From the NCBI GenBank assembly GCA_041659445.1, contig JBAZYG010000001.1:390001-422000 (forward strand): a stretch of DNA of 32,000 nt. Reading direction: 5' to 3'. This DNA comes from Candidatus Saccharimonadota bacterium (GTDB lineage: Archaea > Nanobdellota > Nanobdellia > Pacearchaeales > GW2011-AR1). The translations under genes were made by a program, and so were the position numbers. Position 1 is the stretch's first letter, and every line of letters begins with the position of its first letter. The notes under the pieces were generated by a model. It had not been told where the DNA came from. It saw only the letters and a program-made list of their open reading frames with translations, and ran no database searches. Positions 784 through 29,985 of the stretch are shown piece after piece.

Positions 784-1041
784 ATGCCTAAAAATTTAGA
801 AGCAATAAAAGATTTTGGAAAAATAGGATTAAAAACATTAAGAAATGGATTGGTTGTTTTTGGAGCAACTTATTTTATTAAAGAAGGATTTGACTATAAC
901 TCAAATTTGGATTCTTTAAAAGAAAGCATTAATTATGCACAAGACACAGGGATAGTAACTTCTATTTTAACAGTAAGTTATTATTTTGTAAAAGGCACTA
1001 TAAAAGCAATTGATAATTTTTCATCAATATCAGAACATTAA
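784..1041 (+). CDS. hypothetical small protein
   Basis: 85-aa ORF starting 5 nt after the previous stop, so probably co-transcribed. No recognisable motif. Confidence 0.4.
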   Translation: MPKNLEAIKDFGKIGLKTLRNGLVVFGATYFIKEGFDYNSNLDSLKESINYAQDTGIVTSILTVSYYFVKGTIKAIDNFSSISEH

Positions 1042-3899
1042 TCCAATTTCAAACTGATAATTTTACTGACTCCGTCGTGCATTGAAACTCCGAAGATGTT
1101 TGTTGCATTTGAAATAATTTCATCGTTGTGACTTATAACAATGTATTGTCCTTTTTGCATGTATTTCTTAAGTAAATTTCCAAGTCTTTCTGAATTTCTT
1201 TTATCAAGAGCAGCATCAATTTCATCCAAAATGTAAAAACAATATGGTTTTAATTCTTGAATTGCAAAAATTAAAGACAGAGCAACTAAAGTTTGTTCTC
1301 CTCCTGAAAGAGATTTGACATCGAAATATTTTCCGTGTCCTGTCTTGACTGTGATATTTACACCTCCTTCAAAAGGATCTTTTTTGTTTTCCAAATCCAA
1401 CCAAACTTCACCTTTTGTACTTAATTCTGCAAAATTCCTAGAGAAAATTGAATTTAATTCTTCTAAAGTTTTAAGAAATGTTTTTTTCTTCTTGACATCA
1501 ATTTCATGAATTATCTTAAGAATTTTTTCTTTTTCATTAACAATAATTTCTGATTTTTCATTTATTTTATCATATTCTTCTTTTACAGAATCATAAACTT
1601 CCAAAGACCTTAAATTTACAGAACCAATTCTCATCAAAGTATCTTGAATATTTTTTAATTTTGATGAAAGATTCTCTTTATTTCCATGAACAATTTCAAC
1701 TTCTTTAAATTCAGAAAGTTCTTCTTGGATGTTCTCTAATTCTGCTGTGACTTTTGCTCTTTCAATTTTGAAATTATTGCAATCCTGTTCTAATCCATAA
1801 ATTTCATTTTTTTTATTAGAAATTTCTGACTCAATTTCTCGAATCTTATTTTGAGATTCATCTCTTTGAGAAATTAATTTTTGGAATTTTTTTGTTAATT
1901 CTTCTTCTGAATCTCTTTTTTGCTTAAGAGTTTTTTCTTTTTCTGAAATTGATTTTTGAATTGATGATAATTCTTCATTTACTTCTTTTTCATCACGAAC
2001 AACTTGTTTCAAAGAAACTTCAATTCTCTCAATTTCCCTTTGCTTAAAAGATATCTCTGAATCTACATTTTCTTTATTTCTCAAGGATATTTCTTCTATT
2101 TCAATTCTTAAATTTTCATATTTTTGATCAACATTTGAATTTTGATCAAAATCATTTTCTAAATTCTTTCTTTTTTTAATCAAATTCTCAACTTCTTGCT
2201 TTAATGGATTTATTTTTTCCTCTAAGATTTTTATTTGATTTTTTTTATCCTCTATTGAAATTAATTTAGTCAAATCAGATTTTCTTTTACTTAATTCAGA
2301 ATTAATTAATTCAATATCTTTTTTTAGTAAATCTATTTTCTTATAAATTTCAGAAATTTCTTTTTCTGAATTTTTTATTTCAGATTCTAGTTGAGATATT
2401 TTTGGATTTATGTCTGATTTTATTGAAGAAACATGTTCATGTGTAATTTTACTTCTGCAAAGAGGACAAACTTCTAATTTAGAAACTTTTTCCAAAACTT
2501 TTTTTTGCTTGTCAATTTCATATTCGTTTGTATGAATTATTAATTCTAATTCCTGTTCTCTTATTTTTAATGATTCAATTGCCTGACTTTTTTCTTGAAA
2601 TGAAACTTGAAGAGATTCTAAATTTTCTGGTTTTGATTTTTTATCAAATAATTCTAAAGAAAGTCCATTTATTTGTTTGAGCAAAAAGTTAGATTCATTT
2701 TCATAATTTAAAAGCATATTTTTTTTATCTTCAATACGTTCAGAAACTGATTTTAATTCAGATTTTAACATATAGAATTTTTTTCTTTTTTCTTCTAATT
2801 CTTCAAGCTCTTTCTTTTTTTGTTTTAATTCTTTTTCTTTTTTATCTAATGCAGGAGATTCTATTTTTAACTCTCCCACAAGTTCTTCTAATTCTGTCAA
2901 GGAATGTTCAAATTCTCTTTTTTGGTTTGATAGATTACTTATTTTTCTTTCAGAATTCTCTAATTTAACCCTTAAACCTGTTAGTTCTGCTCTTAAATTT
3001 GCTATTTCATTGTTTAATTTTTCTTGTTCTATTCCAGTAGATTCTTTTATTGTAATATTTATTTCATTGATTTTAGAATTTAAACTATCTACATTTGTCT
3101 TTAATGTCAAATTTAATTTTTTTATTTTTTCAATTTCTTTGTTTTTCTTTTCTATTTCTGAATTTATTCTTTCTTTTTCTTTATTTTTTTCAATAAGATT
3201 TTCATTAAGAATGCTTGCTTTCAAGACTTCGACTTCTTTCTCGAGTTTTTTGAATTTGAGTGCTTCTTGCCTTTCTTTTTCCAGATTATTTAAATAAGCA
3301 GTTCTTTCTCTTAATATTGCAGAAATTTCTTTTAATTTCTCTTCTGTTTTTTCCAATTCTTTTATTGATTTTTCTTTTCGAGATTCATAAATAGAAATTC
3401 CAGCGACTTCTTCAATTATCTTTCTCCTTTCTTCTGATTGCATTCTCACAAAATTTTGAATTTCGCCCTGTAAAATAATATTAAATCCATATGGATCAAT
3501 TCCTGCTTGAGCAAGCAAAGACAAAACTTCTTGTCGGGTTTTTGTTTTGTCATTTATTTTATAAATACTTTGTCCGTTTCTTCTTACAATTCTTTTTATT
3601 AAAATTTCCTGTTCTTCCATTCCAAAAGAATTATCTGAATTATCTATTATTACTTCGACTGAAGCTTCTTTAGATGGAGATGCAATTTTTGTTCCTAAAA
3701 AAATTAAATTTTTTGCTTTTGCTGCTCTCATGGATTTTATACTTAATCTTCCGAGGACAAAACATAAAGCATCAGAAATATTTGATTTTCCAGAACCATT
3801 TGGTCCGAGGATAACATTTATCCCTGGAGTAAAAGGGAGTTCTGTTTTTTTTGGGAAACTTTTAAACCCATACATCACCAATTTTTTTATGTAAGGCAT
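1038..3899 (-). CDS. smc: SMC-family chromosome segregation ATPase with an atypical middle (CxxC hook instead of a hinge)
   Basis: N-terminus MPYIKKLVMYGFKSF...GPNGSGKSN (Walker A). QG-loop region ILQGEIQNFVRMQSEERRKIIEEVAGI. C-terminus LSGGEQTLVALSLIFAIQ (signature motif) and FYILDEIDAALD (Walker B). Long heptad-like Lys/Glu/Leu arms lie between the heads. Confidence 0.9.
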   Translation of the reverse strand: MPYIKKLVMYGFKSFPKKTELPFTPGINVILGPNGSGKSNISDALCFVLGRLSIKSMRAAKAKNLIFLGTKIASPSKEASVEVIIDNSDNSFGMEEQEILIKRIVRRNGQSIYKINDKTKTRQEVLSLLAQAGIDPYGFNIILQGEIQNFVRMQSEERRKIIEEVAGISIYESRKEKSIKELEKTEEKLKEISAILRERTAYLNNLEKERQEALKFKKLEKEVEVLKASILNENLIEKNKEKERINSEIEKKNKEIEKIKKLNLTLKTNVDSLNSKINEINITIKESTGIEQEKLNNEIANLRAELTGLRVKLENSERKISNLSNQKREFEHSLTELEELVGELKIESPALDKKEKELKQKKKELEELEEKRKKFYMLKSELKSVSERIEDKKNMLLNYENESNFLLKQINGLSLELFDKKSKPENLESLQVSFQEKSQAIESLKIREQELELIIHTNEYEIDKQKKVLEKVSKLEVCPLCRSKITHEHVSSIKSDINPKISQLESEIKNSEKEISEIYKKIDLLKKDIELINSELSKRKSDLTKLISIEDKKNQIKILEEKINPLKQEVENLIKKRKNLENDFDQNSNVDQKYENLRIEIEEISLRNKENVDSEISFKQREIERIEVSLKQVVRDEKEVNEELSSIQKSISEKEKTLKQKRDSEEELTKKFQKLISQRDESQNKIREIESEISNKKNEIYGLEQDCNNFKIERAKVTAELENIQEELSEFKEVEIVHGNKENLSSKLKNIQDTLMRIGSVNLRSLEVYDSVKEEYDKINEKSEIIVNEKEKILKIIHEIDVKKKKTFLKTLEELNSIFSRNFAELSTKGEVWLDLENKKDPFEGGVNITVKTGHGKYFDVKSLSGGEQTLVALSLIFAIQELKPYCFYILDEIDAALDKRNSERLGNLLKKYMQKGQYIVISHNDEIISNATNIFGVSMHDGVSKIISLKLD
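2457..2468 (-). other. CPLC motif (Cys478/Cys481 of 953) in the context KLEVCPLCRSKITHEHV; candidate zinc hook
   Basis: The reverse complement of 2457-2468 reads tgt cct ctt tgc. Its position is the arithmetic midpoint of the SMC ORF. Confidence 0.6.
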
Positions 3900-4370: not shown

Positions 4371-5039
4371 TTAAAATAACTTTTCTTGGTTTGCGTTGTT
4401 TTCTGCATTTTTCCAAGTTTCCCAAGTCTTTCTAAATATTCCTTTATCTTTTAATTTTTTAACATTTTTTTCAAGAAACCTGCATGTAAGAGGATCTGCA
4501 GGATAACCTGTTCCTATTTCTTCTCCATAAATTTTTCTTAATTTTTCCATTTCTCTTTCTCTCTCGCACTTTGCCAAAATCGAAGCTGCTGAAACAACTG
4601 GATAATTTTTATCTGCTTTATGCTCACAAACAACTTCTAAGTTTGAAAGGTCTGAGATTTTGGTTTTCAAAAAATCTTTCCATTTTGAAATCGTTGTTGA
4701 TGGACAATCGACGATTAATTTTATTTTAGATGAACTATTTACATTTAATTTGTTTACAACTTTTGCCATATGAACTGCTTCTAATTCATTTAATTTTAAT
4801 CCTCGAGCATTAGATTCATCAATTTCTGACGGAGAGATTATAGAAATTTCAAAAGATATTACTTTTTCTTTTATTTTTTCTTCTAAAAATTCTCTTCGCT
4901 TTTGCGTTAATTCTTTACTATCTCGAACTCCCAATTCTTTTAGAAATTTTTCATCTTTATCGTCAATTAAACATCCTGCAATAATCATTGGACCAATTAC
5001 AGGACCTCTTCCTGCGTCATCAATACCTATTTTTAACAT
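4371..5039 (-). CDS. rnhB: ribonuclease HII
   Basis: N-terminus MLKIGIDDAGRGPVIGPMIIAG, then ...VDCPS..., and CEHKADKNYPVVSAASILAKCEREREMEKL. These are the archaeal RNase HII blocks. Confidence 0.9.
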   Translation of the reverse strand: MLKIGIDDAGRGPVIGPMIIAGCLIDDKDEKFLKELGVRDSKELTQKRREFLEEKIKEKVISFEISIISPSEIDESNARGLKLNELEAVHMAKVVNKLNVNSSSKIKLIVDCPSTTISKWKDFLKTKISDLSNLEVVCEHKADKNYPVVSAASILAKCEREREMEKLRKIYGEEIGTGYPADPLTCRFLEKNVKKLKDKGIFRKTWETWKNAENNANQEKLF

Positions 5040-6959: not shown

Positions 6960-6984
6960 GATTATGTGTTCTGTAGAATATATT

Positions 6985-7065
6985 GCCCAGATGGCGGAGT
7001 GGTTAACGCACACGATTGGAAATCGTGGTCCTCTGGACTCCTAGGTTCGAATCCTAGTCTGGGCG
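6985..7065 (+). tRNA. tRNA-Ser (anticodon GGA)
   Basis: Hand fold: acceptor GCCCAGA/TCTGGGC; anticodon stem CACGA/TCGTG with loop TTGGAAA; long variable arm GTCC-TCT-GGAC; T arm CTAGG-TTCGAAT-CCTAG. A T-run follows the gene. Confidence 0.9.
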
Positions 7066-7123
7066 TTTTAAATTTGAGAAAGATTAAAACAAAATTTATA
7101 TACCTTATTTTCTAAGTAAAGTT

Positions 7124-7363: not shown

Positions 7364-7439
7364 AGCGAGGTGGAGCAGCCTGGAGTGCTCGTCGGGCCCA
7401 TAACCCGGAGGTCGTGTGGTTCAAATCCCACCCTCGCTA
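7364..7439 (+). tRNA. initiator tRNA-Met (anticodon CAT)
   Basis: Acceptor AGCGAGG/CCTCGCT gives an A1:U72 pair. The anticodon stem TCGGG/CCCGG has three consecutive G:C pairs next to the loop CCCATAA. Both are archaeal/eukaryotic initiator hallmarks. Confidence 0.85.
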
Positions 7440-9035: not shown

Positions 9036-9109
9036 TTTTAAAAACAAAATCTTTAAAATAGGTCAGATTATTCTATTTTAAGAAGAATTAAACAAAATTG
9101 CTTAATACT

Positions 9110-9190
9110 GCCCTCGTCGCATAGTGGTTATTGCACCGGTTTGCTAAACCGGGCCCTTTGGGCGCGCAGGTTCAATTCCTGCCGAGGGCG
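9110..9190 (+). tRNA. tRNA-Ser (anticodon GCT)
   Basis: Acceptor GCCCTCG/CGAGGGC; anticodon stem CCGGT/ACCGG with loop TTGCTAA; long variable arm GCCC-TTT-GGGC; T arm GCAGG-TTCAATT-CCTGC. A T-run follows. Confidence 0.9.
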
Positions 9191-9249
9191 TTTTCTTGTT
9201 TAGTTTACATTATAATAATACTTATAAATAAAAAATTTGTTTTAAAATC

Positions 9250-11761: not shown

Positions 11762-13429
11762 TTAATTTTCGTCACAATTTGTTTCATACATTATTCCATC
11801 TGAAAAAGCCATCCAACAATTTCCAACTGAATAATTTCCTGTCAAACCAATATTATTTTGAGAAATTAAATTTCCTGAGAAAGAAATATCTCCGTTAACA
11901 TCTAATTCACTTTGAGGAGTTGTTGTTCCAATTCCAACTTTTCCACCCATAATTGCCATTGTGTTTGCTTGACTTACAATAGTTCCTGATTGATCATTTA
12001 ACCCTATTCCTACTGAATTACTTCCTGAAACTTCTATTCCTTTACCCATTGCGACAGAGTAAGGTCCTGATGCAATTGTATTTCTTCCAAAAGATGTTGA
12101 AGCTTCTCCAGATGAAACAGTCACCAAACCCATTGCTGTTGAACCATAACCTGAAGAAATAGTTCCAGAGCCCATTGCTGTTGAAGCAGTTTCAGATGCA
12201 GTTGTAGAATATCCCATTGCTGTTGAATAATCTCCTAAAGCTTTTGTGTAACCCCCAGTTGACATTGAACTATAACCTGAAGATTCAGTGTATTCTCCCA
12301 TTGCTGTTGAATAATATTGCGAAGATTCTGAACCATAACCTGTTGCTGTTGAATAATATCCTGATGAAATTGTTGCACCACCCATTGCAATTGCACCAAT
12401 TTCAGAGGCTAATGTGCTTGGTCCTATTGCTGTTGAATATAAATTTGAAGCATTTGCATAATAACCCATAGACATTGAATGCTTATTTGGATTAATTAAA
12501 AGAGTATTTTCACCAACATAAAAATTTCCTGTAAATTTCCCATCACCGATGACAGTCAATGCATTTTGGGGATTGTTTGTTTTTATTCCAACATTTCCAT
12601 TATTATTTACAACAAATGCCTTTGAAGAATTTGCTCCTGGACTAAAATACAAACTTTCATCTCCTGCAGATGTAAAATCTATTTTAAAGATTTCTTTATT
12701 TCCAGAACGAATATTAAAACTATCTGCTAAAATAAATGCAAGATATCCACCATTGTAATCACCCAAAATAAAATCATTTGTAGAATGAATACTTCCATTA
12801 ACATCTAAATTATATTGTGGGTTGCTTGTTCCAATACCAACATTTCCCCCCATAATTGCCATTGTATTTGCTTGAGAAACATTCAAATTATTTTGATCAT
12901 TCAATGCGATAGCAAAACTATAATCTCCTCCTGCAATAATTTCTCTACCCATTGCTGTTGACAAAAACCCAGAAGCTGTTGTTGCAAAACCAGTCGCTGT
13001 TGAAGAAGCTCCTGAAGATTTTGTTAAATCACCTAATGCTATTGAAGAATCTCCTGAAGCATTTGCATAATGTCCTAATGCTATTGAAGAATCTCCTGAA
13101 GAGAATGCATGATTCCCAACAGCTACTGAAGAAGGCCCTAAAGCTGTTGATGAATATCCTAAAGCAACAGAATATAATCCCGAAGCTGTTGAGGTTCCTG
13201 ATGAAATTGAATAGGTATTTGTATTAACAAAAAAATCAGTTCCTCCAACACTGAAATTGTAATCTCCTAAAACAACATTATGATTTGAGCCAACGTAAGG
13301 AACATAACTTGAATTATAATTTGATGAAATTAATTTATTATTTGTCTTTGCTAAAGAAAAAGAAGATAAACATAAAATCAAGATTAAAACAAAAACCATT
13401 CCAAAAAAATATTTATTTTTACATTTCAT
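11762..13429 (-). CDS. secreted repeat protein with YadA-head-like (Hep_Hag-type) repeats and two fiber-neck-like modules
   Basis: Signal peptide MKCKNKYFFGMVFVLILILCLSSFSLA. Dozens of 7/14-residue repeats have the form S(T/V)A(M/L/I)G.x.xAsG. The motif ANTMAIMGG(N/K)VGIGT..P...LDVNG occurs twice, about 300 aa apart. Confidence 0.75.
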   Translation of the reverse strand: MKCKNKYFFGMVFVLILILCLSSFSLAKTNNKLISSNYNSSYVPYVGSNHNVVLGDYNFSVGGTDFFVNTNTYSISSGTSTASGLYSVALGYSSTALGPSSVAVGNHAFSSGDSSIALGHYANASGDSSIALGDLTKSSGASSTATGFATTASGFLSTAMGREIIAGGDYSFAIALNDQNNLNVSQANTMAIMGGNVGIGTSNPQYNLDVNGSIHSTNDFILGDYNGGYLAFILADSFNIRSGNKEIFKIDFTSAGDESLYFSPGANSSKAFVVNNNGNVGIKTNNPQNALTVIGDGKFTGNFYVGENTLLINPNKHSMSMGYYANASNLYSTAIGPSTLASEIGAIAMGGATISSGYYSTATGYGSESSQYYSTAMGEYTESSGYSSMSTGGYTKALGDYSTAMGYSTTASETASTAMGSGTISSGYGSTAMGLVTVSSGEASTSFGRNTIASGPYSVAMGKGIEVSGSNSVGIGLNDQSGTIVSQANTMAIMGGKVGIGTTTPQSELDVNGDISFSGNLISQNNIGLTGNYSVGNCWMAFSDGIMYETNCDEN

Positions 13430-13484
13430 CTTGTTTAACTTTATGAAAGCCCTTATTTAAACATTTTTATACTGTAATATATTT

Positions 13485-14297
13485 TCAGTTTATCTCGCTT
13501 GCTCTTTTCCACTGAATATAATTTTTATTCAAAATTTCAACTACTTTGTCTCTTTGTTCAGAATTACCCAAACCTTTCCAATCTAAAATCACAAAATCAA
13601 TTTCTTCTAAAGTTTTTTCAATTGCTTCTTCTATAAATTCCTCGGTGATTGGAGAAACATACCCTGGAATTATGTGAGAAATCGCGACATTTGAATTTGA
13701 TTGAATTTTATTAAATGAGGGACAATAATGCGGACCTCCAATTGCAACAGCAATTTCTCGATATTTATTTTCTTCAAAAGTATCAATTGCTTTTTTTAAG
13801 GCATTTGCAATCACAAAACCTGCTCGTTTATCTTTCCAATCTATTTCAGTGCTTCCAATTTCCAAAAATAAACAAGGCTTATTTATTAACGGGCCGTGAT
13901 GAGTTACTTCAAGAGTTAGTTTATATCCTCGTAAATCTAAATCTTGAATTTGTTGTTCTAAATTTTCAAATAAATGCTTATTAAATAAAGCAGAAGAAAT
14001 TCCAAGTTTACCTTGTTTCCCTCCACCCCAAACTTCTCGGAAATTTCCAGGAGCATGAATTGAAATTGTTTTTTGCTTTTCAGTCGAAGATGTGGAATGC
14101 TTTGAAGCAAAAACTACAAAATCAAAATTATTTATTTTTTCTAAATCAAGATTTCCTTCATCTAAAATTGAACCATCGACAGTTTCAAATTTTACATTCT
14201 TATTCTGAAATTCATCAATATACTGAAAAAACTGCGTTAAGATATTCATCCCAGCTAAATCTTGTTTACTCGCAATAATTAAATATTTTTTAAACAT
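13485..14297 (-). CDS. dtdA: D-aminoacyl-tRNA deacylase, archaeal type (DTD2)
   Basis: Blocks FASKHS, HAPGN, LEVTHHGP, FLEIGSTE..W.D..AG, AIGGPHY and DWKG match the archaeal DtdA family as I remember it. Confidence 0.8.
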   Translation of the reverse strand: MFKKYLIIASKQDLAGMNILTQFFQYIDEFQNKNVKFETVDGSILDEGNLDLEKINNFDFVVFASKHSTSSTEKQKTISIHAPGNFREVWGGGKQGKLGISSALFNKHLFENLEQQIQDLDLRGYKLTLEVTHHGPLINKPCLFLEIGSTEIDWKDKRAGFVIANALKKAIDTFEENKYREIAVAIGGPHYCPSFNKIQSNSNVAISHIIPGYVSPITEEFIEEAIEKTLEEIDFVILDWKGLGNSEQRDKVVEILNKNYIQWKRASEIN

Positions 14298-22791: not shown

Positions 22792-23376
22792 CTAAAGAAT
22801 TTGCCCATTAAAATTAGAATTAAAATCTTTAACAATTTGATTATCTTCATCAAAAAAATCAACTATAATAATTGCTTTTTCATAAGCACGATAATACCTT
22901 TTATCAGTAACTTTCACATAATTTACTTTGGATGCAACAAACCTCACTTGCCGATCATTATCGTCTTCAAAAAGTCCGCCTTCTTTTAGGGAATCAATTA
23001 TGTTCTTTGTATAGTTATCTACATCCCTATCTTTGTGGGTATTAACTAAAAGATATTTTATTAAAATTTGTATTGGTTTGTTTTTTATTTCTTCGCAGAT
23101 TGATTTTGTATTTTTTGATTTTTTTAATTTATCAACAATTATTTTTCTCATTCTCTTTCCTGCTTTTGTTTGAAAACTTGCAGGATATGCATCTGGCATT
23201 AACCACCAAAGGTGTTTCCCCTTTGGACAAGAATCAAAAGAATCTTTATGTATTATTGAAATTCCTCTTGAAGAAACTCCTTTTTTGAGGATATTCATCT
23301 TAACTTTTTCACTTCTTCTTTTTGGAATTTTTACATTGGGAAAATTACTCATAACTAATTCTCTCATAGTTACCAT
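22792..23376 (-). CDS. RusA-like Holliday-junction resolvase domain protein
   Basis: DVDNYTKNIIDSLKEGGLFEDDNDRQV matches the RusA core, which in E. coli RusA (from memory) reads [25 protein letters not shown]. The N-terminal ~50 aa are extra. Confidence 0.65.
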   Translation of the reverse strand: MVTMRELVMSNFPNVKIPKRRSEKVKMNILKKGVSSRGISIIHKDSFDSCPKGKHLWWLMPDAYPASFQTKAGKRMRKIIVDKLKKSKNTKSICEEIKNKPIQILIKYLLVNTHKDRDVDNYTKNIIDSLKEGGLFEDDNDRQVRFVASKVNYVKVTDKRYYRAYEKAIIIVDFFDEDNQIVKDFNSNFNGQIL

Positions 23377-23377
23377 T

Positions 23378-24043
23378 TTATCTAATTTTCATGTGTGTTT
23401 TTTTGTGACAAACCCCACAGAGAACGACTAAATTATTCACTTGATTATTTGAAGAATCTTCATCTTTATGATGAATGTGAAGACCTTCTGTTTTCCCACA
23501 AACAGCACATTCATTATTAAATTTGCCAAAGACCATTTCCTTTTCATCATTTGTTAAAAATTTTCTTTTAGCCTTAACTTTCCCATAAATCTTTTTCTCA
23601 GCTTCTTCTCTTATTTTTCTTTTTTCTTGTCTTTCCAAAATTTTATTTGATTCTATTTTTATAAGTTCATCACTTACAAGTTCATTTATTGCTTTTTCAA
23701 TATTATAATCTTTATTTATTACCTTCTTTATCACATTTTCTTTATTAAAATAGGAAATTCTTTGCTTAGATCTTTTTAGCTTCAAATATTCTTTTGCCTT
23801 AACAACTAATTGTTCTGGAGCAAATTTATCTTCTTGATGCCAATCTAAATGAGGCTCTTTTGATTCATTAGAAAGTTTGATGTAATTAATTATCTCTTTA
23901 ATTGCTTTCATTTCTTTTTTACTTCTTTGGTTTCTTTCTTTTATTTCTATTTCTTTTAAATAACAAGATTTGCATTTACCAGAAAACATATAACTATACT
24001 CTTCAAACTTTGTATAACATACTGAACAATTATAAAACCCCAT
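23378..24043 (-). CDS. HNH endonuclease with an N-terminal Cys4 ribbon
   Basis: C-terminus CAVCGKTEGLHIHHKDEDSSNNQVNNLVVLCGVCHKKTH (HNH). N-terminus CSVC...CKSC. ATG 24043 is preferred over the TTG at 24064. The stop lies 1 nt from the RusA-like start. Confidence 0.8.
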   Translation of the reverse strand: MGFYNCSVCYTKFEEYSYMFSGKCKSCYLKEIEIKERNQRSKKEMKAIKEIINYIKLSNESKEPHLDWHQEDKFAPEQLVVKAKEYLKLKRSKQRISYFNKENVIKKVINKDYNIEKAINELVSDELIKIESNKILERQEKRKIREEAEKKIYGKVKAKRKFLTNDEKEMVFGKFNNECAVCGKTEGLHIHHKDEDSSNNQVNNLVVLCGVCHKKTHMKIR

Positions 24044-24106
24044 TAAATAAAAAAGAAAGAACAATATTTAATATTTTCTAATTTGTAAAAAATCCAATAA
24101 TTAGAA

Positions 24107-28045: not shown

Positions 28046-28354
28046 ATGAACAACATTGATGAATTTTTGGAAGATGGTTTTAAAATAAGAGAATATGAAA
28101 ACAATTTATCAAAAATTATATCTGAAATAAAAAGAGAATGTGAAGTTCAAAAAGAAGAAGATTTTGATTACAAAGAGCATATAGAAATATCTGTTAACGT
28201 CTTAAAAACATTTCTAGAAGGATATAAAAAATTAATAGAAAAATATCCTGATTCAAAATTTATTAAAAATAGAAAAAAATATTTATATTTTTTTGCAAAG
28301 AAAAACTTACCTAAAGAAGTATATAAAGAGGTTTATGAAAATGAACAACATTGA
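28046..28354 (+). CDS. hypothetical protein, paralog 1 of a tandem triplet
   Basis: Begins MNNIDEFLEDG and ends EKYPDSKFIK...LPKEVYKEVYENEQH. Confidence 0.6.
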   Translation: MNNIDEFLEDGFKIREYENNLSKIISEIKRECEVQKEEDFDYKEHIEISVNVLKTFLEGYKKLIEKYPDSKFIKNRKKYLYFFAKKNLPKEVYKEVYENEQH

Positions 28355-28637
28355 TGAAATCTTAGAGGATGGTAGAAAAATTTATTTATTGATGGAAAAT
28401 TCATTATATTTTGCTGAATTAATAATGAATGAAAGGAAATATATTGAAATTCTTCCTAAGGAAAAAGAAGGTTATAGAATGACCTTAAAAAATAACTGGA
28501 AAAGATTTCAGGAATTTTCAGAAAAATACCCTAATTCTGAATTTGTTAAGGAAACAGTTGAAAGAATTCTTAATTCAGCGAAAGAAGATTTACCAGAAGA
28601 AGTATACAAGGAGATTTATGAAAATGAACAACATTGA
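28341..28637 (+). CDS. hypothetical protein, paralog 2 of a tandem triplet
   Basis: Begins MNNIDEILEDG and ends EKYPNSEFVK...LPEEVYKEIYENEQH. The sequence aagaggt lies at 28326-28332. An alternative ATG lies 6 nt upstream at 28335. The ORF-track start at 28293 is a TTG inside paralog 1. Confidence 0.6.
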   Translation: MNNIDEILEDGRKIYLLMENSLYFAELIMNERKYIEILPKEKEGYRMTLKNNWKRFQEFSEKYPNSEFVKETVERILNSAKEDLPEEVYKEIYENEQH

Positions 28638-28914
28638 TGAAATCTTGAAAGATGGAATTAGTGCTCATTATATTGGAAGGGATTCTTTAGAAGATATTTC
28701 AAAAATAAGAGAATACTCAAAATTTCCAGATAAATTATGGAAAATCGGAGATTACAAAAAAAGATTAGTTAGTTATTGGAAAGGTTTGCAAGATTTAGCT
28801 AAAAAATACCCAGATTCTGAAGTTATTAAAGAACAAACTGAAATAATTCTTAACTCGGCAAAAGAATATCTACCCGAAAATATATATAAAGAAATTTATG
28901 AATCAGAAAAATAA
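28624..28914 (+). CDS. hypothetical protein, paralog 3 of a tandem triplet
   Basis: Begins MNNIDEILKDG and ends KKYPDSEVIK...LPENIYKEIYESEK. The sequence aaggag lies at 28608-28613. An alternative ATG is at 28618. Confidence 0.6.
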   Translation: MNNIDEILKDGISAHYIGRDSLEDISKIREYSKFPDKLWKIGDYKKRLVSYWKGLQDLAKKYPDSEVIKEQTEIILNSAKEYLPENIYKEIYESEK

Positions 28915-29543: not shown

Positions 29544-29614
29544 TTCTTATAATTTTTATTTTAGATAAGTTTTTAAGTTCATATTTATTTGAAAATTTAT
29601 AATTTGCAATTTAT

Positions 29615-29698
29615 GCGGGGGTGCCGGAGTGGTCAAACGGGCTGGACTTAAGATCCAGTAGCTTAGTGCTTGCGCAGGTCCGAATCCTGTCCCTCGCA
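29615..29698 (+). tRNA. tRNA-Leu (anticodon TAA)
   Basis: Acceptor GCGGGGG/CCCTCGC (one G:U pair); anticodon stem CTGGA/TCCAG with loop CTTAAGA; long variable arm; T arm GCAGG-TCCGAAT-CCTGT. A T-run follows. Confidence 0.85.
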
Positions 29699-29746
29699 TT
29701 TTGATAGGATGAGAACCAAGCCTAAAAAAATATTTAGATTTTTGCC

Positions 29747-29773
29747 CGCAGGTCCGAATCCTGTCCCTCGCAT
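29747..29773 (+). repeat. 27-nt direct repeat of the tRNA-Leu 3' end (identical to 29673-29699)
   Basis: The sequence cgcaggtccgaatcctgtccctcgcat is present at both positions; read directly. Confidence 0.9.
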
Positions 29774-29846
29774 AGCCATTACGCATAGGCTTCGCGAGAC
29801 ACTGAATGAAAAAGCCATTACCCATAGGCTTCGCGAGACACTGAAT
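29774..29846 (+). repeat. two-copy tandem repeat, 34-nt unit with 39-bp period (agccattac[g/c]cataggcttcgcgagacactgaat)
   Basis: Copies at 29774-29807 and 29813-29846 differ by one mismatch. Each contains the palindrome tcgcga. The repeat is GC-rich relative to its surroundings. Confidence 0.9.
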
Positions 29847-29985
29847 AACGATTTCTTTAAATTGCCTCTGATTGAAATCGCAAATAATACTTAAACTCTT
29901 AAACAAAGTTGTTCAATTGCCTCTGGCAACAACAAAAAAAATTAATCACATAAATATTTTTAAATCCAAATGCAACTAAATTTTT

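What the first reader, a model, noticed from the sequence alone, without database searches (positions are those of the whole stretch)
1038..3899. SMC with canonical heads but a Rad50-type CxxC zinc hook where the hinge should be
Both head halves look like orthodox archaeal SMC rather than Rad50. The N-terminus reads MPYIKKL..GFKSF..GPNGSGKSN, followed by ILQGEIQNFVRMQSEERRKIIEEVAGI. The C-terminus carries LSGGEQT and FYILDEIDAALD and ends ...GVSMHDGVSKIISLKL. However, the protein is only 953 aa, and I cannot find a Gly-rich globular hinge between the two coiled-coil arms. At the arithmetic midpoint (Cys478/Cys481, nt 2457-2468) sits KLEVCPLCRSKITHEHV. From memory, this closely resembles the Rad50 zinc hook (Pyrococcus Rad50 CPVCGRELTDEH: C-P-x-C, then T-x-E-H). 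A hinge-to-hook swap would change how the SMC dimerises, from a hinge interface to Zn-mediated apex pairing. It would be a natural SMC/Rad50 chimera. I am not aware of this architecture being described for the chromosomal SMC orthologue.
Basis: partly seen in the sequence, partly recalled or inferred. Interest (0 to 1): 0.75.

Follow-up and report, generated by a model that had tools for sequence, protein, structure and literature searches.

The report
Archaeal SMC with zinc hook apex
In a large group of tiny uncultured archaea (Pacearchaeota), the chromosome-organising SMC protein has lost its usual hinge and carries a Rad50-style zinc hook instead, which shows that nature has made the domain swap previously made only in the laboratory.

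Summary
Window 1038-3899 (minus strand) encodes a 953-aa protein with orthodox SMC ATPase heads: Pyrococcus SMC head E=6e-106, Rad50 heads about 1e-12; NCBIfam SMC 551 bits, Rad50 108 bits. It has two ~300-residue arms and no hinge. Pfam finds the hinge at E~1e-30 in the nearest longer relatives. Exactly at the arm reversal (AF2 turn 475-486) sits C478-P-L-C481.

CPxC is invariant in 120/120 close homologues, in 81/81 genes from other genomes, and in representatives down to 40% identity. The isolated apex passes the Pfam Rad50_zn_hook threshold. A family profile finds the Pyrococcus Rad50 hook structures as the two best PDB sequence matches (E=7e-7). Foldseek ranks Rad50 hooks first to third.

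The hook-type proteins form a 100%-supported clade nested among hinge-bearing DPANN SMCs. They share the same rnhB-smc gene position, so this is the lineage's SMC orthologue with about 215 aa of hinge replaced by about 25 aa of hook.

Zinc binding, apex dimerisation, kleisin partners and the absence of a second SMC in the same genome are inferred, not shown. I found no prior description; only engineered chimeras are known. Verdict: a real, natural new variant of a known kind, of high interest to the SMC field.

The parts
1038..3899 (-). smc gene, hook-type: 953-aa SMC protein without hinge, plus stop codon
   Evidence: ORF. SMC_N 1.3e-45 spanning residues 3-945. TIGR02169 3.7e-165. Pyrococcus SMC head 5xei 6e-106.
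3390..3899 (-). N-terminal half of the ATPase head (residues ~1-170): Walker A GPNGSGKSN 32-40, SMRAAK arginine region 56-61, Q-loop Q144
   Evidence: Aligns to Pyrococcus SMC head residues 1-183/199. Invariant residues are listed.
2478..3389 (-). N-terminal coiled-coil arm (residues ~171-474)
   Evidence: AF2 helices 156-344, 352-416 and 424-474. Collinear with the arms of hinge-type SMCs up to ~460-470.
2379..2507 (-). Rad50-type zinc-hook module (residues 465-507) as matched by Pfam PF04423
   Evidence: Isolated 60-aa segment: 26.0 bits against gathering cut-off 24.3, E=8e-6. 38/42 and 18/20 family members hit. Profile against PDB: 6zff_A 7e-7, 1l8d_A 9e-7.
2442..2477 (-). Apex turn (residues 475-486, LEVCPLCRSKIT), the only break between the two arms at the reversal point
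   Evidence: AF2 full length and apex fragment (pLDDT 95.5, pTM 0.78). Foldseek ranks 1-3 are Rad50 hooks.
2457..2468 (-). C478-P479-L480-C481, the predicted zinc ligands (two Cys per chain)
   Evidence: Invariant C-P-x-C in 120/120, 81/81 and 20/20 deep representatives.
1530..2441 (-). C-terminal coiled-coil arm (residues ~487-790)
   Evidence: AF2 helices 487-586, 590-605, 609-729, 741-758 and 764-826. Collinear with hinge-type arms from ~490.
1038..1529 (-). C-terminal half of the ATPase head (residues ~791-953): signature LSGGEQT 864-870, Walker B FYILDEIDAALD 888-899 with catalytic E893, H-loop H924
   Evidence: Aligns to Pyrococcus SMC head C-terminal halves (3kta_B, 1xew_Y, about 1e-36). 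Invariants.
4371..5039 (-). rnhB (RNase HII), conserved upstream neighbour on the same strand; marker of positional orthology, not a functional part
   Evidence: Pfam RNase_HII 3.7e-46. Same-strand upstream in 56/64 hook-type loci and 5/7 hinge-type DPANN loci.

Best explanation
This is the orthologue of the prokaryotic chromosomal SMC protein in Pacearchaeota-type DPANN archaea. The ~215-residue hinge module has been replaced by a ~25-residue Rad50-type zinc hook. The SMC heads and the two ~300-residue arms are unchanged.

Shown here:
- The architecture: SMC heads, collinear arms, no hinge, and CPxC at the arm reversal.
- Conservation of this architecture across a large clade.
- Significant profile and fold similarity of the apex to solved Rad50 hooks.
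- Derivation of the family from hinge-bearing SMCs, at the same genomic position.

Inferred:
- Two chains each give two cysteines to one tetrahedral Zn2+ and form a constitutive apex dimer with the arms side by side, as in the Rad50 rod structure.
- The ATPase heads engage and disengage with ATP (catalytic E893, signature motif, Q-loop and H-loop are all intact).
- The dimer is closed by a kleisin (ScpA, with ScpB) encoded elsewhere in the genome.
- The complex entraps and translocates on chromosomal DNA like Smc-ScpAB, with the hinge's role reduced to dimerisation, as in the engineered B. subtilis Smc(Zn-hook) chimera.
For: - Heads: SMC_N 1.3e-45. TIGR02169 551.5 bits against Rad50 models of at most 108.6 bits and ASRP 149.5 bits. 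PDB SMC heads 6e-106 against Rad50 about 1e-12.
- No hinge: none at E<=10, while the nearest longer relatives give PF06470 at 1e-30 to 1e-33.
- Collinearity: the hook-family HMM maps P0376 as 1-469<->1-475 and 490-952<->692-1139, and P0149 as 1-460<->1-462 and 491-952<->677-1157.
- Apex position: the AF2 turn at 475-486 lies between helices 424-474 and 487-586. The fragment model has pLDDT 95.5.
- Hook identity: Pfam PF04423 26.0 bits, above the 24.3 cut-off. 38/42 and 18/20 members hit, best 3e-8. The family profile against all PDB sequences gives 6zff_A 7e-7 and 1l8d_A 9e-7 over 67 of 71 columns, with the next hit at 0.036. Foldseek top 3 of 350,542 chains are Rad50 hooks, TM 0.74-0.75.
- Conservation.
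- Only C-P-x-C is invariant in deep members. Each chain therefore supplies two ligands, which requires a second chain.
- Phylogeny: the clade of hook-type plus apex-deleted forms has 100/100 bootstrap support and is nested in hinge-type DPANN SMCs.
- Synteny: rnhB-smc in 56/64 hook-type and 5/7 hinge-type loci.
- Feasibility: B. subtilis Smc with the P. furiosus Rad50 hook in place of the hinge supports growth (PMC5344682). Hook and hinge are interchangeable in Rad50 (PMC6969161).
Against: - No zinc, dimer or DNA measurement exists.
- No ScpA, ScpB or any kleisin-like gene was found in the window, in 81 hook-type loci with up to 10 kb flanks, or by a motif scan. Kleisin genes need not be linked to smc.
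- Whole genomes could not be searched, so a second, hinge-bearing SMC in the same organisms is not excluded.
- Apex-deleted orthologues with neither hook nor hinge (804 aa) exist at the same locus in some Pacearchaeota. Apex dimerisation may therefore be dispensable in this lineage.
- The protein fails the NCBIfam SMC equivalog cut-off (551.5 < 729.4).
- The short motif alone also resembles RING-finger knuckles.
- Foldseek E-values are weak (0.02).
- The tree is NJ on 393 head columns without Rad50/ASRP outgroups and is midpoint rooted.
Confidence: 0.75

Rival explanations
1. The CPxC turn is an intramolecular zinc knuckle or plain structural cap. It stabilises the hairpin of a single chain and does not join two chains. 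Any dimerisation comes only from the heads, a kleisin, or arm-arm contacts.
For: In the close family, H489 is invariant and D476 is at least 90% conserved next to the two Cys, which could in principle complete a Cys2-His-Asp site. Apex-deleted orthologues exist, so an apex link may not be essential. The short motif resembles RING knuckles.
Against: In deep-branching members H489 becomes Y, E or A and D476 varies, and only C-P-x-C remains invariant. The profile similarity to the Rad50 hook extends over both coiled-coil flanks at E=7e-7. The Rad50 hook carries the same T-x-E-H after CPxC, and to my knowledge its zinc is bound by four Cys from two chains. Foldseek's best matches are Rad50 hooks.
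Confidence: 0.1
2. It is a paralogous or accessory SMC-like ATPase, comparable to ASRP/ClsN, Lamassu LmuB or another defence or repair factor. It coexists with a canonical hinge-bearing SMC encoded elsewhere in the same genomes.
For: Whole genomes were not searched. PADLOC gives partial hits to mad3 (169 bits, C-terminal head only) and LmuB (102 bits). ASRP and many LmuB proteins carry zinc hooks. No kleisin was found nearby.
Against: SMC_prok_A scores 551 bits against ASRP 149.5 (cut-off 300) and LmuB 102. The size (953 aa) and arm length match SMC, not ASRP (~590 aa) or LmuB (~650 aa). The Walker B Glu is intact, unlike LmuB. The gene sits at the same rnhB-adjacent position as the hinge-type smc of sister lineages, among housekeeping genes. 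It is nested within, not beside, DPANN SMCs with 100/100 support. None of the 120 closest hinge-type proteins is labelled Pacearchaeota, although source labels are loose.
Confidence: 0.08
3. The architecture is as described, but the hook was not acquired from Rad50. After the hinge was deleted, a CPxC turn evolved de novo, converging on the Rad50 solution.
For: The non-SMC segment is very short, about 20-30 residues between collinear arm segments. The close-family profile gave only E=0.43 to 1l8d. Coiled-coil composition can inflate profile scores. CPxC knuckles recur in unrelated proteins. No Rad50 donor was identified.
Against: The diverse-family profile matches the Rad50 hook at 7e-7 across 67 columns with identical spacing C-P-x-C-x3-[IL]-T-x-E-H, four orders of magnitude better than any other PDB sequence. 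56 of 62 family apex segments hit the Pfam Rad50_zn_hook model.
Confidence: 0.3
4. It is simply a Rad50/SbcC orthologue mis-annotated as SMC.
For: Zinc hook at the apex. No hinge. Weak hits to Rad50 models (1e-31 and weaker).
Against: Rad50 NCBIfam models give at most 108.6 bits against cut-offs of 700-1087, while the SMC model gives 551.5 bits. PDB Rad50 heads score about 1e-12 against SMC heads at 6e-106. No Mre11/SbcD-like gene lies next to it in 81 loci. The arms are collinear with SMC arms.
Confidence: 0.02

Closest known systems
Prokaryotic Smc of Smc-ScpAB (e.g. Pyrococcus and B. subtilis Smc; TIGR02169/TIGR02168)
   Same: Head sequence and motifs match: 50%+ identity to Pyrococcus SMC heads, with Walker A, Q-loop, signature, Walker B and H-loop. 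The arm length and collinearity match. The gene position next to rnhB matches that in related DPANN archaea. It is annotated 'chromosome segregation protein SMC' in public records.
   Different: It has no hinge domain (PF06470 absent). About 215 residues are replaced by a CPxC hook of about 25 residues. It falls below the NCBIfam equivalog cut-off. Kleisin partners have not been demonstrated.
[quoted passage not shown] 2017, PMC5344682)
   Same: The domain architecture is the same: SMC head, SMC arms, Rad50-type hook. The junctions are at comparable positions: constructs such as Smc(1-480, hook, 691-1186) compare with the natural ~1-470 / 490-952, which corresponds to 1-475 / 692-1139 of a hinge-type relative.
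   Different: The chimera was made in the laboratory. The protein here is natural, conserved over a clade that has diverged to 40% identity, and present in at least 80 GTDB species representatives.
Rad50/SbcC zinc hook (PDB 1L8D, 6ZFF, 5GOX; Pfam PF04423)
   Same: CPxC sits at the tip of an antiparallel coiled coil. The spacing C-P-x-C-x3-[IL]-T-x-E-H is the same. The profile match is E=7e-7, and Rad50 hooks are the top Foldseek matches.
   Different: The heads are SMC-type, not Rad50-type. No Mre11/SbcD gene is adjacent.
Archaea-specific SMC-related proteins (ASRP: ClsN/coalescin, Sph1/2; Yoshinaga et al. 2022, PMC9389158)
   Same: Archaeal coiled-coil ABC ATPases with a zinc-hook motif at the apex.
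   Different: ASRPs are a separate, shorter family (model length 593). This protein scores 149.5 bits against a cut-off of 300 on the ASRP model, and only over the C-terminal head. Its best match by far is canonical SMC.
'Hinge-less' SMC of marine Actinobacteria (Sussfeld et al. 2025, PMC12153180)
   Same: A natural SMC-clade protein that lacks the hinge.
   Different: That group is bacterial and is explicitly reported to lack the CXXC zinc-hook motif. The present family is archaeal and has an invariant CPxC. The apex-deleted Pacearchaeota forms (P0141 group) are closer in concept to the actinobacterial case.
Lamassu LmuB
   Same: SMC/Rad50-like ATPase. Many members have a CPxCG-type hook.
   Different: LmuB is about 650 aa with short coils, usually has a Walker B E-to-Q change, and is encoded in defence operons with LmuA. 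This protein is 953 aa with SMC-length arms, an intact E893 and a housekeeping context. The PADLOC LmuB score is only 102 bits.

Membership tests
Prokaryotic SMC (Smc of Smc-ScpAB) | SMC-type ABC ATPase head split between the N- and C-termini, with Walker A, Q-loop, signature motif, Walker B and H-loop | tested here: met
   PF02463 1.3e-45 spanning residues 3-945. Pyrococcus SMC head structures 6e-106 to 1e-36. Motifs are invariant across the family.
Prokaryotic SMC (Smc of Smc-ScpAB) | Closer to SMC than to any other SMC-superfamily branch (Rad50, SbcC, RecN, RecF, ASRP, MukB-like) | tested here: met
   TIGR02169 551.5 and TIGR02168 528.3 bits, against ASRP 149.5, Rad50 at most 108.6, RecN 54, SbcC 37. 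Nested among hinge-bearing SMCs in the head tree, 100/100. No explicit outgroup tree was built.
Prokaryotic SMC (Smc of Smc-ScpAB) | Two ~300-residue antiparallel coiled-coil arms | tested here: met
   AF2 secondary structure shows long helices 156-474 and 487-826 with a few breaks. Collinear with the arms of hinge-type SMCs.
Prokaryotic SMC (Smc of Smc-ScpAB) | Globular hinge dimerisation domain (PF06470) between the arms | tested here: not met
   No PF06470 hit at E<=10. The same model gives 1e-30 to 1e-33 in the nearest longer relatives. Only about 20-30 residues lie between the collinear arm segments.
Prokaryotic SMC (Smc of Smc-ScpAB) | Passes the curated NCBIfam equivalog cut-off | tested here: not met
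   TIGR02169 551.5 < 729.4 and TIGR02168 528.3 < 567.35. The shortfall is explained by the missing hinge.
Prokaryotic SMC (Smc of Smc-ScpAB) | Kleisin ScpA and KITE ScpB partners encoded in the genome | tested here: inconclusive
   None found in the 32-kb window, in L001/L004, or in the flanks of 80 GTDB loci. Whole genomes could not be searched, and hinge-type relatives also lack adjacent scpA.
Prokaryotic SMC (Smc of Smc-ScpAB) | Orthology by gene position with smc of related lineages | tested here: met
   rnhB lies same-strand upstream in 56/64 hook-type loci and in 5/7 hinge-type DPANN loci.
Rad50/SbcC | CxxC zinc hook at the apex of the coiled coil (PF04423) | tested here: met
   The isolated segment scores 26.0 bits, above the 24.3 cut-off. 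38/42 and 18/20 members hit. PDB profile 6zff_A 7e-7 and 1l8d_A 9e-7. Foldseek ranks 1-3. The motif lies at the AF2 turn. The full-length scan misses it.
Rad50/SbcC | Rad50-type ATPase head | tested here: not met
   Rad50 NCBIfam models give 61-109 bits against cut-offs of 700-1087. PDB Rad50 heads score about 1e-12 against SMC heads at 6e-106.
Rad50/SbcC | Adjacent Mre11/SbcD nuclease gene | tested here: not met
   No such neighbour in the window or among conserved neighbours of 81 loci.
Rad50/SbcC | Interchain Zn(Cys)4 coordination that joins two chains | not testable with these tools
   It needs multimer modelling with metal, or biochemistry. Indirect support: only two Cys per chain are invariant.
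ASRP (ClsN/Sph) | Matches the ASRP model NF045487 above its cut-off; about 590 aa | tested here: not met
   149.5 bits against cut-off 300, matching only residues 637-923. Length is 953 aa.
Lamassu LmuB | ~650-aa SMC-like protein with short coils, Walker B E-to-Q, LmuA partner | tested here: not met
   PADLOC LmuB 102 bits at best. E893 is present. The neighbours are housekeeping genes. Features as described in PMC10586767.

The most novel reading that the evidence does not exclude
An entire, species-rich archaeal lineage (Pacearchaeota) runs its only chromosomal SMC complex without a hinge, using a zinc hook captured from Rad50. Some sublineages have gone further and deleted the whole apex. 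If so, every proposed hinge-specific function (DNA entry gate, hinge DNA binding, hinge-head contacts in loop extrusion) is dispensable in nature, not only in one engineered Bacillus strain. The textbook split 'SMC = hinge, Rad50 = hook' would then not be fundamental.
Probability: 0.5. Interest if true: 0.85.

Novelty: new variant of a known kind. Interest (0 to 1): 0.72.

Why it matters
The role of the SMC hinge is a long-standing open question. It may be only a dimerisation module, or it may be an active DNA gate or DNA-binding element in loading and loop extrusion.

So far the main evidence that the hinge is replaceable comes from one engineered B. subtilis chimera (PMC5344682) and the reciprocal Rad50 chimera (PMC6969161). 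A recent review from the field still defines SMC by its hinge and Rad50 by its hook (PMC10586767).

A natural hinge-to-hook replacement has several consequences:
- It has been maintained under selection across a clade that has diverged to 40% identity, with arm length held at about 952 aa. This is an evolutionary replicate of the laboratory experiment.
- It gives a set of natural sequences for biochemical and structural work, including a minimal SMC of about 950 aa.
- Together with the apex-deleted forms, it provides a graded natural series (hinge, hook, nothing) for testing what the apex contributes.
- It flags an annotation blind spot. These proteins fall below the curated SMC cut-off, and hinge-based searches for SMC miss them.

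Tried and rejected
- The full-length Pfam scan did not report Rad50_zn_hook even at E<=10. The hit appears only when the apex is scanned alone.
- The close-family apex profile against PDB sequences was inconclusive: 1l8d at E=0.43 among RING fingers. The single 38-aa segment hit only RING fingers. The more diverse profile was needed.
- The exact-sequence contig look-up for the window protein failed.
- I looked for ScpA, ScpB, Mre11 or Rad50 in four ways: Pfam on 20 window ORFs, neighbourhoods of homologues, clustering of 1,166 flanking ORFs from 81 loci, and a from-memory ScpA N-terminal motif regex. All were negative, and none is decisive.
The full-length alignment was used instead, so all 80 returned loci are hook-type and the scan could not test co-occurrence with hinge-type genes.
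- Source organism names proved unreliable. Hook-type loci are titled Pacearchaeota, Nanoarchaeota, Woesearchaeota, archaeon, and even Parcubacteria and Iainarchaeum. The taxonomic argument therefore rests on the tree and synteny, not on the labels.
- Hook-type alone is not monophyletic (0/100), because four apex-deleted forms nest inside. The combined clade has 100/100 support.
- The bacterial promoter/terminator scan was uninformative: 20 sites found against 19 expected.
- The apex is only modestly more conserved than the arms in the close family (0.77 against 0.70 +/- 0.10). The case therefore rests on the invariant residues, not on a conservation peak.
- The full-length AF2 model has poorly modelled heads (pLDDT < 50 for residues 1-77 and 934-953). 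I did not use it for fold searches.

Full report
**1. The observation.** The window has about 26% G+C. Coordinates 1038-3899 hold one 953-aa ORF on the minus strand. There are 477 residues before C478 and 472 after C481. The protein has only five cysteines, so a CxxC anywhere is expected 0.026 times by chance.

**2. The heads are SMC, not Rad50.**
- Pfam gives SMC_N (1.3e-45) spanning residues 3-945.
- NCBIfam gives the two prokaryotic SMC models 551.5 and 528.3 bits. It gives ASRP 149.5 bits, Rad50 models at most 108.6, RecN 54 and SbcC 37.
- Against PDB sequences the best matches are Pyrococcus SMC head constructs (5xei 6e-106, 5xns 1e-95, 4i99 9e-87). Bacterial and eukaryotic SMC heads follow. 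Rad50 heads appear only at about 1e-12.
- Walker A (32-40), Q-loop Q144, signature LSGGEQT (864-870), Walker B with E893, and H924 are invariant in the family.
- The protein misses the NCBIfam SMC cut-offs (729.4 and 567.35). This is what a missing hinge would cause. The first matched stretch covers model positions 1-479 of 1165.

**3. There is no hinge.**
- No PF06470 match appears even at E<=10.
- The model is sensitive in this part of the tree. The nearest longer relatives (P0148, P0158, P0170, P0178; 41-43% identical) give hinge hits of 1e-30 to 1e-33.
- An HMM of the hook family aligns hinge-type proteins collinearly on both sides. For P0376 the mapping is 1-469<->1-475 and 490-952<->692-1139. 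For P0149 it is 1-460<->1-462 and 491-952<->677-1157.
- So about 215 residues (hinge plus its junctions) correspond to about 20-30 residues here, and both arms keep their length.
- The junctions are close to those of engineered B. subtilis constructs such as Smc(1-480, Pf Rad50 hook, 691-1186) listed in PMC5344682.

**4. The CPLC is at the arm reversal.**
- AF2 on the full-length family alignment models the arms well but the heads poorly (mean pLDDT 72). It gives helices 156-344, 352-416 and 424-474, then a non-helical turn at 475-486, then helices 487-586, 590-605 and 609-729.
- The 105-residue apex fragment folds with pLDDT 95.5 and pTM 0.78 as a helical hairpin with the same 12-residue turn.

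**5. The apex is a Rad50-type hook.**
- Scanned alone, the apex hits Pfam Rad50_zn_hook as the top family, at 26.0 bits against a gathering cut-off of 24.3.
- 38 of 42 close family members and 18 of 20 deep-branching representatives also hit it, best E about 3e-8.
- A profile of the 20 deep representatives was searched against all 177,635 distinct PDB sequences. The Pyrococcus Rad50 hook structures are the two best matches (6zff_A 7e-7, 1l8d_A 9.2e-7). They align over 67 of 71 columns with identical spacing...D-x-C-P-x-C-x-x-x-I-T-x-E-H against ...G-K-C-P-V-C-G-R-E-L-T-D-E-H. The next hit, a RING finger, is at 0.036, and the human Rad50 hook is at 0.066.
- Foldseek of the apex model against 350,542 PDB chains ranks 1l8d_A, 1l8d_B (TM 0.74-0.75) and 5gox_A first to third. 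The E-values are weak (0.02-0.04), as expected for a bare helical hairpin.
- Cautions: the narrower family profile and the single sequence gave only RING-finger-level noise. The bare motif is therefore not diagnostic on its own.

**6. Conservation and breadth.**
- CPxC is present mid-protein in 120/120 homologues of 63-73% identity, all about 952 aa and none with a hinge domain.
- In that set C478, P479, C481, T486, H489 and I493 are invariant.
- An exhaustive search of 1.84 billion cluster representatives shows hook-type proteins down to 40% identity (P0121-P0143 and fragments), all with mid-protein CPxC.
- In those deep members only C-P-x-C is invariant (H489 becomes Y, E or A). Each chain therefore reliably offers only two ligands, as an interchain site requires.
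- A scan of one genome per GTDB species returned at least 555 relatives. The best 80 loci are all full-length hook-type genes at 61-68% identity. All 81 complete genes I could translate carry C-P-x-C-x3-[IMV]-T-x2-H.
- Named members are mostly Pacearchaeota or Nanoarchaeota MAGs. NCBI places Pacearchaeota in Nanobdellati, that is DPANN. Record titles are loose labels, including 'Woesearchaeota' and one 'Parcubacteria'.

**7. It is derived from, and orthologous to, hinge-type SMC.**
- I built an NJ tree on 393 head columns of 113 full-length representatives. Hook-type proteins plus four short CxxC-less forms make one long-stemmed clade nested among ~1140-1160-aa hinge-bearing SMCs. That clade has 100/100 bootstrap support in a 53-taxon subset.
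- The nearest hinge-type family is labelled Woesearchaeota, Nanoarchaeota or Nanoarchaeia. None of 120 is labelled Pacearchaeota.
- Gene order agrees. RNase HII (rnhB) lies upstream on the same strand within 1.5 kb in 56 of 64 assessable hook-type loci, with a median gap of 141 nt. In the window it is at 4371-5039 with a gap of 471 nt.
- The same arrangement is found in 5 of 7 hinge-type DPANN loci (L003, L005, L087, L088, L089).
- The other window genes are housekeeping. Pfam identified D-aminoacyl-tRNA deacylase, a TP_methylase-family protein (diphthine-synthase-like by eye) and TrmB. The isoleucyl- and arginyl-tRNA synthetases and the thioredoxin reductase are my reading of the translations. 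There are four tRNAs.

**8. What could not be shown.**
- No ScpA, ScpB, Mre11 or Rad50 gene was found in the window, in neighbouring DNA of homologues, or among conserved neighbours.
- Hinge-type relatives also lack an adjacent scpA, so linkage is not expected.
- Zinc binding, apex dimerisation and the absence of a second SMC per genome remain inferences.

**9. Mechanism proposed.** Two chains are joined at the apex by one Zn2+ bound by C478 and C481 of each chain. Their arms run side by side, as in the Rad50 rod structure 6ZFF. The SMC heads bind and hydrolyse ATP. A kleisin encoded elsewhere closes the ring. The complex acts on the chromosome like Smc-ScpAB. This is plausible because the engineered B. 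subtilis Smc(Zh) supports growth and shows the same arm-length dependence as wild type (PMC5344682), and because hook and hinge are interchangeable in fission-yeast Rad50 (PMC6969161). The near-constant length of about 952 aa across the family fits the 'tuned arms' idea of that work.

**10. Rivals.**
- A Rad50 orthologue is excluded.
- An accessory paralogue (ASRP, LmuB or another defence factor) is made unlikely by the scores, the size, the intact Walker B Glu, the housekeeping synteny and the nesting in the SMC tree. It is not excluded without whole genomes.
- An intramolecular zinc knuckle is disfavoured, because only two Cys are invariant in deep members and because of the extended similarity to the Rad50 hook.
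- Whether the hook was captured from rad50 or evolved convergently stays open. The 7e-7 profile match over both flanks favours capture.

**11. Prior knowledge.**
- Full-text searches found hook-bearing ASRP/ClsN (PMC9389158), hook-bearing LmuB (PMC10586767), engineered chimeras and a hinge-less actinobacterial SMC explicitly lacking CXXC (PMC12153180).
- They found no description of a natural canonical SMC with a zinc hook.
- A survey of archaeal SMCs counted DPANN proteins as 'canonical aSMC' and, by my term search, never mentions zinc or a hinge domain (PMC8665677).
- The searches cover open-access papers and bioRxiv only.

**12. Verdict.** This is a natural, conserved hinge-to-hook variant of SMC: a new variant of a known kind. 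It bears directly on the debate about what the SMC hinge is for.

Noticed in passing
Related proteins P0141/P0275 (804 aa), P0144 (779), P0145 (801), P0147 (781); locus L090 5001-7415: Apex-deleted SMC forms nest inside the hook clade. They lack hook-family positions ~408-560 altogether, with no hinge, no CxxC and arms about 75 residues shorter on each side. They sit at the same rnhB-adjacent locus in Pacearchaeota MAGs (PIU75690.1, GCA_002780285.1). This suggests a series hinge -> hook -> no apex module.
   Followed up: partly
Related proteins P0123 (1479 aa) and P0130 (1483 aa), hook-type; P0171-P0190, P0300, P0313, P0368, P0373 and others (~1660-1800 aa), hinge-type: A ~530-540-aa insertion lies immediately after the Walker A motif (query residues 1-45, then 39 onward, align around it). 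The precomputed Pfam hits are Intein_splicing (PF14890) and LAGLIDADG_3 (PF14528). This is an intein in the SMC P-loop, recurrent in DPANN SMCs of both apex types.
   Followed up: partly
Related proteins P0155 (943 aa) and P0157 (963 aa): These are hinge-bearing SMCs (PF06470 about 1e-31) of hook-type length. They have a normal hinge but arms about 100 residues shorter on each side. This is a natural 'mini-Smc' among DPANN relatives.
   Followed up: no
window 28046-28914 (+): Three overlapping tandem small ORFs (102, 114 and 123 aa) are paralogous. They share MNNIDE[FI]LEDG..., ...KYP[DN]SEF[IV]K... and ...LP[KE]EVYKE[IV]YENEQH. This is a tandemly repeated small gene family of unknown function.
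   Followed up: no
window 22792-24064 (-): A RusA-like resolvase (weak Pfam hit, 22.3 bits against cut-off 22.8) lies directly downstream of an HNH endonuclease-domain protein. This may be a remnant of a mobile or viral element between housekeeping genes.
   Followed up: no
window 29556-29906 (-) and 29614-29699 (+): The 116-aa ORF on the minus strand overlaps tRNA-Leu(UAA) and is almost certainly spurious. Other tRNAs are at 6984-7066 (Ser), 7364-7439 (Met) and 9109-9191 (Ser).
   Followed up: yes
Locus L089 219-2303: The RNase HII gene upstream of a hinge-type smc is 694 aa and carries an intein (PF01351 plus PF14890). This is another intein in the same neighbourhood.
   Followed up: no
Loci L019 and L053 (GTDB scan): Contigs carrying a typical hook-type archaeal smc are titled 'Parcubacteria group bacterium' (JBAZBJ010000017.1) and 'Candidatus Iainarchaeum archaeon' (JBDRJG010000005.1). 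Many others are titled 'Woesearchaeota'. This points to mis-binning or loose taxonomic labels in public MAGs.
   Followed up: no
window 11762-13429 (-) and 12001-14000: A 555-aa Gly/Ser/Thr/Ala-rich repetitive secreted protein raises local G+C to 0.32, against about 0.26 elsewhere. It has an internally repeated 'YS[TS]A[MI]G' type motif.
   Followed up: no
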